A stretch of 5,209 bases of DNA. Source: a virus (Duplodnaviria > Heunggongvirae > Uroviricota > Caudoviricetes). The notes under the pieces were generated by a model that had not been told where the DNA came from, did not search any database, and saw only the letters and a list, made by a program, of their open reading frames with translations. Shown one piece after another: positions 3,606-5,209 of this stretch (within the stretch, counting starts at the first letter, position 1; each line of letters begins with the position of its first letter). The stretch covers positions 1 to 5,209 of IMG/VR virus record IMGVR_UViG_2690315922_000002; one strand, given 5' to 3'. The position numbers and the translations under genes are program-made.

Positions 3606-4225
3606 GACTCGAAAGCGTAGCTAAATTTCATTCGCCAAAAAGCCCGATGATGAGCGACTCACCACGGGCTACGGCTTCTGACTTTCTTTCCGGTACTGAT
3701 GTGATGGCTGCTATGGGGATGGCGCAATCACAAGCCGGATTCGGAATGGCTGCATTCTGTGGTAAGCACGAACTCAGCCAGAGCGACAAACAAAAGGCTA
3801 TCAACTATCTGATGCAATTTGCACACAAGGTATCGGGGAAATACCGTGGTGTGGCAAAGCTTGAAGGAAATACTAAGGCAAAGGTACTGCAAGTGCTCGC
3901 AACATTCGCTTATGCGGATTATTGCCGTAGTGCCGCGACGCCGGGCGCAAGATGCAGAGATTGCCACGGTACAGGCCGTGCGGTTGATATATCAAAAACA
4001 GAGCAATTGGGGAGAGTTGTTGAGAAAGAGTGCGGAAGATGCAAAGGCGTCGGCTATTCAAGAATGCCAGCAAGCGCAGCATATCGCGCTGTGACGATGC
4101 TAATCCCAAACCTTACCCAACCCACCTGGTCACGCACTGTTAAGCCGCTGTATGACGCTCTGGTGGTGCAATGCCACAAGGAAGAGTCAATCGCAGATAA
4201 CATTTTGAACGAGGTCACACGTTAG
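3602..4225 (+). CDS. Q: Late-gene antitermination protein Q (lambda-type Q)
   Basis: 207-aa ORF, the same length as lambda Q. The translation (MRLESVAKFHSPKSPMMSDSPRATASD...CRDCHGTGRAVD...CGRCKGVGYSR...) agrees with lambda Q as I recall it almost residue for residue, including the zinc-binding cysteine cluster. Followed by a pR'-type promoter. Confidence 0.9.
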   Translation: MRLESVAKFHSPKSPMMSDSPRATASDFLSGTDVMAAMGMAQSQAGFGMAAFCGKHELSQSDKQKAINYLMQFAHKVSGKYRGVAKLEGNTKAKVLQVLATFAYADYCRSAATPGARCRDCHGTGRAVDISKTEQLGRVVEKECGRCKGVGYSRMPASAAYRAVTMLIPNLTQPTWSRTVKPLYDALVVQCHKEESIADNILNEVTR

Positions 4226-4267
4226 CAGCATGATTGCCACGGATGGCAACATATTAACGGCATAATA

Positions 4268-4310
4268 TTGACTGTTTGAATAAAGTTGGGTAAATTTGAC
4301 CCAAGAATGG
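4268..4310 (+). promoter_or_regulatory. Late promoter pR' with overlapping qut (Q-utilisation) region
   Basis: TTGACT (4268-4273), 17-bp spacer, TAAATT (4291-4296), then TGACCC and a -10-like AAGAAT (4303-4308) at the position of the lambda pause-inducing element (AACGAT in lambda as recalled). The sequence differs from the lambda pR' region as recalled at only a few positions up to 4310. Confidence 0.7.
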
Positions 4311-4496
4311 CAGATTTATATCCGTTCACATTCTTTCAGCTTTTACCCACCTCATCTTTAAGTTCTAAGCGCACTGACATGCGCATCATAAACTCGAGAG
4401 CACATAGGAATAGAGCCTGAGAAATATCGCTTTTGGCGACTTCTCTCGTGGTGATATTTCTATGTCAGCAGGCTCTAATATCTATGTGGTTCGCCT

Positions 4497-4661
4497 ATGT
4501 TAAAACGTGAAGATGCATTGAGACTTTTTAATTACAATCCAGATACTGGAATTCTTACATGGAGGATTCATGTAGGGTGTTTTGACGATATCGAGGAGGC
4601 TAGAAAGGCAATGGAAAATGCCAGAATAAAATATCATGGTGAATTCTCCAGTATGGGATAG
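4497..4661 (+). pseudogene. Remnant of an HNH/AP2-type homing endonuclease gene (54-codon in-frame fusion of the N-terminal and C-terminal ends)
   Basis: Translation MLKREDALRLFNYNPDTGILTWRIHVGCFDDIEEARKAMENARIKYHGEFSSMG. The N-terminal Y-x-P-D/E-T-G-x-L/F-T-W motif and the C-terminal AP2-like G-x-F-x-x-x-E-E-A...A-x-x-K-Y-H-G-E-F are both present, but the roughly 100-residue HNH catalytic core between them is absent. No convincing Shine-Dalgarno sequence. Not in the ORF track because it is under 60 aa. Confidence 0.55.
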
Positions 4662-4663
4662 AT

Positions 4664-4780
4664 GGGGTAATTCGCTCGTTGTGGTAGTGAGATGAAAAAA
4701 GGCGGCGCTTTACTACCGATTCCGCCTAGTTGGTCACTTCGACGTATCGTCTGGAACTCCAACCATCGCGGGCTGAGAGG
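4664..4780 (+). other. Segment homologous to the 5' part of the lambda pR' transcript (6S RNA / late leader), displaced about 355 bp downstream of its promoter
   Basis: ATGGGGTAATTCGCTCGTTGTGGTAGTGAGATGAAAAAAGGCGGCGCTTTACTACCGATTCCGCCTAGTTGGTCACTTCGACGTATCGTCTGGAACTCCAACCATCGC... agrees with the lambda sequence just downstream of pR' as recalled. Resemblance ends near 4780; the lambda tR' hairpin (GCCTGCATAACGGTTTCGGGATTTTTT) is not present. Confidence 0.5.
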
Positions 4781-4821
4781 TTTGCAAATATTGACGCAAT
4801 AAAGTTGCTAATGTGGTAACT

Positions 4822-4848
4822 AATACCCCGTATCTCTGTGTGGGTATT
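4822..4848. terminator. Weak hairpin, possible bidirectional terminator (end of antisense ORF; possible tR' substitute on + strand)
   Basis: AATACCC (4822-4828) / GGGTATT (4842-4848), 7-bp stem with a 13-nt loop, followed on + by TAATTATTTC and on - by a modest T-rich tail. AT-rich stem, so predicted stability is low. Confidence 0.3.
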
Positions 4849-4851
4849 TAA

Positions 4852-5031
4852 TTATTTCAATAGTTCCTGAAATTCAGCGACTAGATCCGCATGTCTTTTC
4901 ATTAGTGGTGTGATAAGACTTTTCTTGTTTTCATCAGAGTGCGTTGACATGGCTATTTGCAAGGTTTTATCAGAGATCTCTTGAAGTAACATATGGATTG
5001 CGTGGAGCCTTCTTGTGTCAAAGTCATTCAT
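4852..5031 (-). CDS. Small hypothetical protein (59 aa), antisense to the late transcript; family not recognised
   Basis: Minus-strand ORF hand-translated as MNDFDTRRLHAIHMLLQEISDKTLQIAMSTHSDENKKSLITPLMKRHADLVAEFQELLK. The ATG (complement of 5029-5031) is preceded on the minus strand by AAGAAGGA about 10 nt upstream; stop is the complement of 4852-4854. Below the 60-aa cutoff of the ORF track. Lies in an AT-rich segment with no resemblance to lambda. Confidence 0.4.
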   Translation of the reverse strand: MNDFDTRRLHAIHMLLQEISDKTLQIAMSTHSDENKKSLITPLMKRHADLVAEFQELLK

Positions 5032-5209
5032 TTGTGTTTAATCCTTCTTTATATGAATGACAACATTAGCACAACATTTCTGAAATGCATAACCAACCAA
5101 ACACAAAGCATACAAAACAATCACCTTATCCGCTGTGGTACGGTGCGGTGTTCTTTGCATAAAAGAAAACCAGCGCAATGGCTGGCTTCGTGAAAGCGGG
5201 TGGCAAGAG

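What the first reader, a model, noticed from the sequence alone, without database searches (positions are those of the whole stretch)
4781..5185. AT-rich replacement segment downstream of the 6S-like region, with an antisense small ORF
After about 4780 the sequence no longer resembles lambda as recalled, and resumes only at about 5186 (CTTCGTGAAAGCGGGTGGCA, which in lambda lies upstream of the lysis gene S). The intervening roughly 400 bp is AT-rich, lacks the lambda tR' terminator, and encodes a 59-aa predicted helical protein on the opposite strand (4852-5031) with its own ribosome-binding site and a hairpin just past its stop. A gene antisense to the late operon, between Q and the lysis genes, sits where lambdoid phages often carry accessory cargo; transcription of it would also collide with late transcription.
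Basis: partly seen in the sequence, partly recalled or inferred. Interest (0 to 1): 0.55.

Follow-up and report, generated by a model that had tools for sequence, protein, structure and literature searches.

The report
Small antisense prophage gene behind late terminator
The AT-rich stretch is a compact accessory-gene cassette found in a few lambda-like prophages: it encodes a conserved 59-residue two-helix protein of unknown function on the opposite strand, directly behind a replacement late-operon terminator. It is a real but fairly ordinary piece of phage cargo.

Summary
Lambda homology stops at 4788 and resumes at 5186, and the 397 bp between are 37.8% GC against 47.4% for the window. The minus-strand ORF 4852-5031 is a real gene. 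It matches PHROG 3719 (unknown function) over its full length. Eight distinct alleles are all exactly 59 codons, dN/dS is 0.04-0.32 between distant alleles, and changes concentrate at third codon positions.

In every locus recovered it lies antisense between the late antiterminator gene and the holin gene. That holds across two Q families and at least two holin families.

The claim that tR' is missing misreads the hairpin past the ORF's stop. In all alleles that hairpin carries its U-run on the late strand. In the E. coli allele it would end the pR' leader at about 193 nt, as in lambda. In this window it is degraded (-7.6 kcal/mol).

The likely logic, which is inferred, is that the gene is expressed while Q is absent and is overrun once Q permits read-through. 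No convincing promoter was found.

The AlphaFold model is a generic helical hairpin. A sub-threshold resemblance to the FliG C-terminal domain is only a lead. This is a new member of the moron kind, of modest interest.

The parts
4661..4788 (+). Lambda-like body of the 6S / late-leader RNA. This is context and marks the left edge of the replacement.
   Evidence: 95% identical to lambda 44590-44716. A homologous stretch is also present next to the ORF in loci that carry a different Q family.
4789..4826 (.). Cassette-specific spacer between the 6S body and the hairpin.
   Evidence: No lambda homology. Conserved between the E. albertii and E. coli alleles.
4827..4857 (+). Hairpin (4827-4844) plus T-rich run (4845-4857), oriented to terminate late-strand (pR') transcripts. 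It is a degraded substitute for tR', and its T-run overlaps the ORF's stop codon (4852-4854).
   Evidence: Flagged as a plus-strand terminator-like site. The E. coli allele has CCCCCG..CGGGGG + TTTTTTATTT. All alleles have a hairpin here with the U-run on the late strand, at -10 to -23 kcal/mol elsewhere (-17.0 in the E. coli allele L010) and -7.6 in the window.
4852..5031 (-). Gene for a 59-aa protein with two helices (residues 3-27 and 33-58). It belongs to PHROG 3719, of unknown function.
   Evidence: phrog_3719 E=1.9e-30, covering 59/59 positions. Eight alleles all have 59 codons. dN/dS is 0.04-0.32 for distant pairs. Variable columns by codon position are 29/17/44, and every other frame is closed. 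AF2 pLDDT is 96.
5042..5047 (-). Shine-Dalgarno-like GAAGGA, 10 nt upstream of the ATG.
   Evidence: Sequence. A purine-rich element sits at the same position in the other alleles.
5063..5071 (-). TGcTAATGT, a candidate extended -10 element. This is weak and putative.
   Evidence: TGnTA(A/T)T(G/T)T ends 30-31 nt before the ATG in 6 of 7 alleles. Its score is no better than shuffled sequence, and the consensus scan does not report it.
5075..5087 (.). Inverted repeat CATTTC-N-GAAATG. Its core, TTTCAGAAA on the ORF strand, is conserved upstream of the candidate -10. This is also where homology to ORF-less phages such as HK140 ends.
   Evidence: Alignment A4. HK140 sequence.
5156..5189 (-). Intrinsic-terminator-like hairpin plus UUUUCUUUU on the ORF strand, about 135 nt upstream of the ORF. 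It probably insulates the cassette from leftward transcription.
   Evidence: Stem variants show compensatory change: CCAGC/GCTGG, CCCGC/GCGGG and CCCAGC/GCTGGG. It is also present in HK140, Sf101, ECP1 and about 640 E. coli genomes that lack the ORF.
5186..5209 (+). Lambda homology resumes here, in the region upstream of S. This is the right edge of the replacement.
   Evidence: 96% identical to lambda 45015-45038.

Best explanation
Window 4789-5185 is a moron-type accessory cassette. It has replaced lambda's tR' and the non-coding DNA downstream of it.

The cassette has four parts, read on the minus strand:
1. An insulating terminator (5189-5156).
2. About 130 nt of conserved 5' region with a weak promoter candidate and a ribosome-binding site.
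3. A gene for a 59-residue helical-hairpin protein (5031-4852).
4. A hairpin that abuts the stop codon.

The U-run of that last hairpin lies on the late strand, so it acts as the Q-sensitive late terminator. Without Q, pR' transcripts stop exactly at the gene's 3' end and do not enter it. With Q, RNA polymerase reads through the gene head-on.

Shown here:
- The gene is real and under purifying selection.
- Its position and its terminator geometry are conserved across different Q and holin families.

Inferred:
- The gene is expressed from its own promoter in the prophage or early state.
- It is shut down by convergent, Q-dependent late transcription.
- The protein acts by binding a partner through its helical hairpin, probably as a dimer forming a four-helix bundle. 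The partner is unknown.
For: Coding status:
- phrog_3719 match at E=1.9e-30 over the full length.
- Homologues at 85, 71, 69 and 59% identity, plus 73% IMG/VR alleles, all exactly 59 codons.
- Nei-Gojobori dN/dS is 0.04-0.32 for distant pairs.
- Variable sites by codon position are 29/17/44, and all five other frames carry stops.

Synteny:
- In all 26 assembly loci recovered with the look-up of encoding contigs, the gene is antisense between the antiterminator and the holin.
- The antiterminator is PF03589 in some loci and phrog_753 in L019 and L025. The holins belong to different families (phrog_126, phrog_785; Pfam holin_3_1, holin_3_3).

Terminator:
- At least four unrelated stem sequences occur, each 8-13 nt from the stop codon, and each has its U-run on the late strand.
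- The predicted terminated leader is 193 nt in the E. coli allele, against about 192-194 nt in lambda.
- L025 has a separate terminator directly after the 6S body as well as the cassette's own, so the hairpin travels with the gene.

Cassette character:
- Absent from lambda and from HK140-type phages at the same junction.
- GC is 36-38% against 47-49% in the flanks.
- The upstream minus-strand hairpin shows compensatory changes.

Structure:
- Two helices, pLDDT 96.
Against: - No sigma-70 promoter on the minus strand passes the consensus scan. A position-weight scan does no better than shuffles. The only candidate is a weak, positionally conserved extended -10-like motif.
- No expression data were available.
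- In this window the late-strand hairpin is weak (-7.6 kcal/mol, with 5 nt deleted from its T-run). The insulation logic may therefore be leaky in E. albertii.
- On the ORF strand, only L019 has a clear U-run after the hairpin. How the gene's own mRNA ends is unclear.
- No Pfam, NCBIfam, PADLOC or structural match gives a function.
Confidence: 0.6

Rival explanations
1. The ORF is a chance open frame in AT-rich filler DNA. The segment would then be only a non-coding replacement spacer with a different terminator.
For: The window has 61 ORFs of at least 30 aa. There is no Pfam or NCBIfam family. There is no tblastn hit in 50,697 phage records.
Against: There is a full-length PHROG match at E=1.9e-30. 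All eight alleles have exactly 59 codons with no indels, while flanks diverge beyond alignability in L019. dN/dS goes down to 0.04, changes favour third positions, and the other frames are closed.
Confidence: 0.03
2. The working product is antisense transcription or RNA rather than the protein. Leftward transcripts from the cassette would run past the hairpin into the 6S body and pR', and damp late-promoter firing or Q loading by head-on interference. Comparable cases are lambda paQ and coliphage 186 pR-pL. The peptide would be secondary.
For: On the ORF strand the hairpin lacks a good U-run in most alleles, so read-through toward pR' is possible. The cassette always sits next to the conserved 6S body, even in loci with a different Q family.
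Against: Strong purifying selection on the amino-acid sequence, with synonymous sites saturated, shows that the protein itself is under selection. No strong promoter was found that could compete with pR'.
Confidence: 0.12
3. The protein mimics the FliG C-terminal (torque-helix) segment and acts on the flagellar motor of the lysogen. For example, it could bind MotA and act as a brake, which would also block flagellotropic phages.
For: Pfam FliG_C is hit by 4 of 5 alleles, with best E=3.4e-4. PDB FliG 1qc7 scores E=0.39. BLASTP against E. coli FliG gives 29% identity over 49 residues, with E=3e-4 for that single comparison. hhalign against a 19-sequence FliG_C alignment gives 49% probability over 43 ungapped columns. 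In that alignment the invariant R46 and E53 fall opposite FliG R281 and D288; these FliG residue numbers are my own count.
Confidence: 0.06
4. The protein regulates the neighbouring late functions directly. It could be an inhibitor of Q or holin, or a lysis-timing factor that keeps leaky late expression harmless in lysogens.
For: It is always adjacent to the antiterminator and holin genes.
Against: The neighbours belong to different families: two Q families, and holins of different families, endolysins of different types. The 59-aa protein stays 59-85% identical, which argues against a specific co-evolving partner next door. It has no hydrophobic segment that would suit holin binding in the membrane (sequence).
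Confidence: 0.1

Closest known systems
Morons of lambdoid phages, as defined by Hendrix and co-workers (my own knowledge). Examples are lambda bor, which sits on the opposite strand just after Rz, lambda lom, and HK97 gp15.
   Same: - A small extra transcription unit lies between two conserved genes.
- Closely related phages lack it at the same junction.
- Its base composition is lower than that of the flanks.
- It is flanked by terminator-like hairpins.
- Its orientation allows expression independent of the late operon.
   Different: - Its promoter is not evident.
- Its 3' hairpin is oriented to stop the opposing (late) transcript and doubles as the phage's tR'.
- The product is a soluble 59-aa helical hairpin, not an envelope protein.
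- Expression from the prophage has not been shown.
Lambda tR' and 6S RNA, the Q-dependent late terminator.
   Same: A hairpin plus U-run lies about 193 nt downstream of the pR' start in the E. coli allele, directly after the lambda-like 6S body.
   Different: - The sequence is unrelated to lambda tR'.
- Its U-run abuts the stop codon of a convergent gene.
- In this window the stem and U-run are degraded, and a 355-bp insertion lengthens the leader to about 551 nt.
PHROG 3719.
   Same: Full-length profile match at E=1.9e-30, covering 59/59 positions.
   Different: None in sequence. The family carries no functional annotation, so membership explains nothing about mechanism.
FliG C-terminal domain (PF01706).
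   Same: An ungapped 43-column resemblance that includes an Arg and an acidic residue at the spacing of FliG R281 and D288.
   Different: - The score is below the Pfam threshold.
- It covers only part of the domain.
- The predicted fold is a simple two-helix hairpin.
- No fold match to FliG was found.

Membership tests
PHROG 3719 (phage protein family, unknown function) | Significant full-length match to the family profile. | tested here: met
   E=1.9e-30, 105.7 bits, residues 1-59 on profile positions 1-59 of 59.
Moron (independent accessory transcription unit in a lambdoid phage) | Present in some closely related phages and absent from others at the same gene junction. | tested here: met
   Lambda and HK140, Sf101 and ECP1 lack it between Q and S. 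No match to the ORF segment in 5,426 complete E. coli genomes.
Moron (independent accessory transcription unit in a lambdoid phage) | Base composition differs from the flanking phage DNA. | tested here: met
   GC is 35.5-37.8% against 47.4-48.9%.
Moron (independent accessory transcription unit in a lambdoid phage) | Has its own promoter. | tested here: inconclusive
   No minus-strand site in the consensus scan. The position-weight scan is not above shuffles. Only a conserved TGnTAnTnT motif ends 30-31 nt before the ATG.
Moron (independent accessory transcription unit in a lambdoid phage) | Has its own terminator downstream of the gene. | tested here: inconclusive
   A hairpin lies 8-13 nt after the stop codon in all alleles. 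Its U-run is on the opposite strand, except in L019, where both strands have one.
Moron (independent accessory transcription unit in a lambdoid phage) | Expressed from the repressed prophage. | not testable with these tools
   No transcriptome data were available.
Q-dependent late terminator (tR' equivalent) | An intrinsic terminator on the late strand, a short distance downstream of pR' and ahead of the lysis genes. | tested here: met
   In the E. coli allele: a 9-bp predicted stem (CCCCCG/CGGGGG core) + UUUUUUAUUU, -17.0 kcal/mol, 193 nt from the start site. In the window: a weaker version at 4827-4857, -7.6 kcal/mol.
Q-dependent late terminator (tR' equivalent) | Termination is overridden by Q-modified RNA polymerase. 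| not testable with these tools
   This needs in vitro or in vivo transcription assays.
FliG C-terminal domain (PF01706) | Score at or above the Pfam gathering threshold. | tested here: not met
   18.8 bits against 23.3. Best allele E=3.4e-4. hhalign probability 49%.
FliG C-terminal domain (PF01706) | Same fold. | tested here: not met
Type I toxin (hok-like) or other small membrane toxin with an antisense RNA | A hydrophobic transmembrane peptide. | tested here: not met
   The sequence is hydrophilic and charged throughout. Both helices are amphipathic and there is no hydrophobic stretch.
Known anti-phage defence proteins (PADLOC-DB) | Match to any PADLOC model. | tested here: not met
   No hit at E<=1 for four alleles.

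The most novel reading that the evidence does not exclude
The cassette could be a transcription-interference switch. In this reading, a small regulator is made only while Q is absent and is erased the moment late transcription reads through the shared terminator.

The 59-aa hairpin would then act on a central host machine. One possibility is that it mimics the FliG torque helix and stops the flagellar motor. Another is that it is a coiled-coil hairpin that binds RNA polymerase and tunes pausing or termination at pR'/tR'.

Nothing here excludes these readings, and nothing beyond sub-threshold similarity supports them.
Probability: 0.1. Interest if true: 0.65.

Novelty: new member of a known kind. 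Interest (0 to 1): 0.33.

Why it matters
The finding shows that the Q-to-S junction of lambda-like prophages carries cargo other than toxins and tRNAs. Here it is a tiny, selected gene that is wired tail-to-tail to the late terminator. That arrangement is a simple way to tie a gene's expression to the state before late transcription begins.

The family is rare. It was found in E. albertii, E. coli, Pseudocitrobacter and some metagenomes. It is unstudied and easy to test genetically.

The practical value is modest:
- It corrects annotation, since the gene is real and the hairpin is the late terminator.
- It gives a defined candidate for small-protein studies in prophages.

Tried and rejected
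- **Rfam:** an E-value search of 4100-5209 found nothing.
- **Protein family libraries:** Pfam, NCBIfam and PADLOC gave no family above threshold.
- **Phage records:** tblastn of P0001 and P0006 against 50,697 records found no match.
- **Nucleotide searches:** megablast of the segment against phages and against 5,426 complete E. coli genomes matched only the 5068-5209 block and the 6S part.
- **GTDB species-representative genomes:** no confirmed locus.
- **Exhaustive HMMER search of 1.84 billion representatives:** one true relative, plus one spurious repeat protein (P0004) that I rejected as a wrong-frame repeat.
- **PDB sequence profile search:** only designed coiled coils and a weak FliG hit.
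- **Promoter search:** the sigma-70 position-weight scan scored no better than shuffled sequence.
- **Literature:** two full-text searches found nothing on this gene.
- **Readings considered and dropped:**
  - Rop-like RNA-binding hairpin: Rop was not among the fold hits.
  - GnsB-like, DicB-like or hok-like small prophage proteins: no family hit and the wrong chemistry.
  - Overlapping plus-strand ORFs 4944-5060 and 4993-5193: no PHROG hit, and these frames are closed in other alleles.

Full report
**Source and context.** The window is identical to the reverse complement of a 5,209-bp contig, BBVO01000045.1 of assembly GCA_001514765.1. Other carriers of the identical protein are labelled Escherichia albertii. 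The window is the nin-Q-pR' region of a lambda-like prophage. It holds NinB, Dam, NinE, NinF, YbcO, RusA, NinH and Q (PF03589, 3602-4225).

**The observation.** BLASTN against lambda gives three matches. Window 4200-4304 matches lambda 44484-44588, 4661-4788 matches 44590-44716, and 5186-5209 matches 45015-45038. Window 4789-5185 therefore replaces lambda 44717-45014, which contains tR'. The segment is 37.8% GC against 47.4% for the window. The ORF at 4852..5031 on the minus strand, its GAAGGA 10 nt before the ATG, and the hairpin at 4827-4844 are all present.

**Is the ORF a gene?** Yes.
- It matches PHROG 3719 (unknown function) over all 59 positions at E=1.9e-30.
- Database searches found a small family: P0002 and P0008 in E. 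coli (85%), P0005 in Pseudocitrobacter (71%), P0006 (69%) and P0003 (59%) in metagenomes, and 73% alleles in IMG/VR.
- All eight distinct coding sequences are exactly 59 codons.
- Nei-Gojobori dN/dS is 0.62 for the closest pair, which differs at only 14 sites. It is 0.04-0.32 for all distant pairs, with synonymous sites near saturation.
- Variable columns fall 29/17/44 on codon positions 1/2/3. The other five frames contain at least two stops in every allele examined.
- Against the most distant allele (L019), both flanks of the cassette are unalignable. Only the ORF and the separate 6S body still match.

**Position.** In all 26 assembly loci recovered with the look-up of encoding contigs, the gene lies antisense between the late antiterminator gene and the holin gene.
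- The antiterminator is lambda-type Q (PF03589) in most loci. It is a different family (phrog_753) in L019 and L025.
- The holins belong to different families (phrog_126, phrog_785; Pfam holin_3_1, holin_3_3). Endolysins and spanins also differ.
- Head and terminase modules vary widely.

The conserved feature is the position relative to the late promoter and terminator, not any particular neighbour.

**The hairpin past the stop codon.** In every allele a GC-rich hairpin lies 8-13 nt beyond the stop codon. The intervening A-run on the ORF strand is a U-run on the late strand.
- The stems are unrelated in sequence: CCCCCG/CGGGGG, GCCCCGG/CCAGGGC, GCCCCAC/GCGGGGC and GCCCAC/GTGGGC.
- Only L019 also has a clear U-run on the ORF strand.
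- In the E. coli allele the structure is a canonical terminator (-17 kcal/mol, UUUUUUAUUU). It is the only one between the 6S body and the gene, and it would end the pR' leader at about 193 nt. My same calculation for lambda gives about 192 nt.
- L025 has a terminator directly after the 6S body and, about 330 bp later, the cassette's own. So the hairpin travels with the gene.

I conclude that the cassette supplies a late-strand terminator that substitutes for tR'. The statement that tR' is lacking is true only of lambda's own sequence. In the E. albertii alleles, including this window, the stem has mismatches and 5 nt are deleted from the T-run (-7.6 kcal/mol). Termination here is probably weaker.

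**Upstream of the gene (minus strand).**
- A hairpin followed by UUUUCUUUU lies at 5189-5156.
- Its stem shows a compensatory double change (CCAGC/GCTGG to CCCGC/GCGGG) and a compensatory added pair (CCCAGC/GCTGGG) in other alleles. This argues for a selected structure.
- The block from 5068-5078 to 5209 also occurs, without the ORF, in HK140, HK106, mEp234, N7, Sf101, ECP1 and about 640 E. coli genomes. In HK140, homology ends at TTTCAGAAA, just upstream of the candidate -10 element.
- Between this terminator and the ATG, the alleles share three islands: TTTCAGAAA (part of an inverted repeat at 5075-5087), TGnTA(A/T)T(G/T)T (5063-5071), and the ribosome-binding site.
- Neither the consensus scan nor my position-weight scan finds a promoter better than shuffled sequence.

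The promoter is therefore unproven.

One recurring sub-threshold signal is the FliG C-terminal domain:
- Pfam hits it in 4 of 5 alleles, with best E=3.4e-4.
- PDB 1qc7 scores E=0.39.
- BLASTP against E. coli FliG gives 29% identity over 49 residues.
- hhalign against a 19-sequence FliG_C alignment gives 49% probability, but only 15% against the single sequence.

The alignment is ungapped over 43 columns and puts the invariant R46 and E53 opposite FliG R281 and D288. The predicted fold does not match, and the test is not independent of the scan that raised the idea. I treat it as a lead only.

**Mechanism.** The evidence shows a selected small protein gene in a compact, compositionally distinct cassette, placed tail-to-tail with the pR' leader and sharing a terminator whose polarity protects the gene from Q-less pR' transcription.

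The rest is inferred. The gene is probably expressed from its own weak or regulated promoter while Q is absent, in the prophage or early in infection. It would then be overrun by Q-modified polymerases at late times. The protein probably acts by protein-protein contact as a helical hairpin or four-helix bundle. This fits the moron concept, which I cite from my own knowledge of Hendrix and co-workers' work. The closest parallel is lambda bor, which also sits on the opposite strand, on the other side of the lysis cassette.

**Rivals.**
- A chance ORF is excluded.
- An RNA-only antisense function is possible as an added layer but cannot explain the selection on the amino-acid sequence.
- Direct regulation of Q or holin is made unlikely by the variety of neighbouring families.
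- FliG mimicry remains a long shot.

**Novelty and interest.** The sequence family already exists as an unannotated PHROG, and the cassette is a new member of a known kind. The terminator-sharing geometry is neat but not surprising to a phage specialist. Interest is modest, at about 0.33.

Noticed in passing
window 4305-4660: A 355-bp insertion begins 2-3 nt after the predicted pR' start site, between the promoter and the lambda-like 6S body. It is absent from the E. coli loci L009-L016. It carries a 54-aa ORF (4497-4661, plus strand) that matches only the C-terminal end of HNH endonuclease phrog_99. Locus L029 has a full 163-aa HNH endonuclease at the same site. The window copy therefore looks like a decayed homing-endonuclease insertion in the late leader, which lengthens the terminated leader to about 551 nt.
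   Followed up: partly
window 4297-4310: Because of that insertion, the initially transcribed sequence reads TGACCCAAGAATGG instead of TGACTCAACGATGG as in lambda. The -10-like pause element AACGAT becomes AAGAAT, which is closer to consensus. The effect on sigma-dependent pausing and Q loading is unknown. The role of this element in lambda comes from my own knowledge.
   Followed up: no
window 5156-5189 (minus strand): A terminator-like hairpin plus U-run on the minus strand shows compensatory stem changes. It is conserved in many lambdoid phages and about 640 E. coli genomes that lack the 59-aa gene. It is not clear what leftward transcript it stops in those phages.
   Followed up: partly
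window 4661-4788; L019 and L025 downstream of the ORF: The body of the lambda 6S / late-leader RNA (GCAGACCTCTCAGCC...GGTTGGAGT.CCAG...CGAAGT.ACCAACT.GGCGGAATC on the ORF strand) is conserved even in loci whose antiterminator belongs to a different family (phrog_753) and whose promoter region differs. This suggests a function for that RNA segment beyond Q-specific signals.
   Followed up: no
window 5075-5087: An inverted repeat, CATTTC-N-GAAATG, has a conserved core (TTTCAGAAA on the ORF strand) just upstream of the candidate -10 element. It coincides with the homology breakpoint to HK140-type phages. It could be an operator or a recombination junction.
   Followed up: no
window 4553-4577 (plus strand): A terminator-like hairpin (11 pairs, followed by TGTTTTGA) lies inside the HNH-remnant insertion on the late strand. 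It could prematurely stop the lengthened leader in E. albertii.
   Followed up: no
L002 3875-5103; L003 18-2606: E. albertii CP043266 carries the cassette in two prophages. One has an IS (rve-type transposase) inserted between the 59-aa gene and the holin. The other has an IS66-family element downstream of the lysis genes. Some carriers are therefore probably defective.
   Followed up: no
L025 6181-6520: In the most divergent lambda-unlike locus, about 330 bp of unassigned DNA lies between a first late-strand terminator (after the 6S body) and the cassette's own terminator. Its content was not examined.
   Followed up: no
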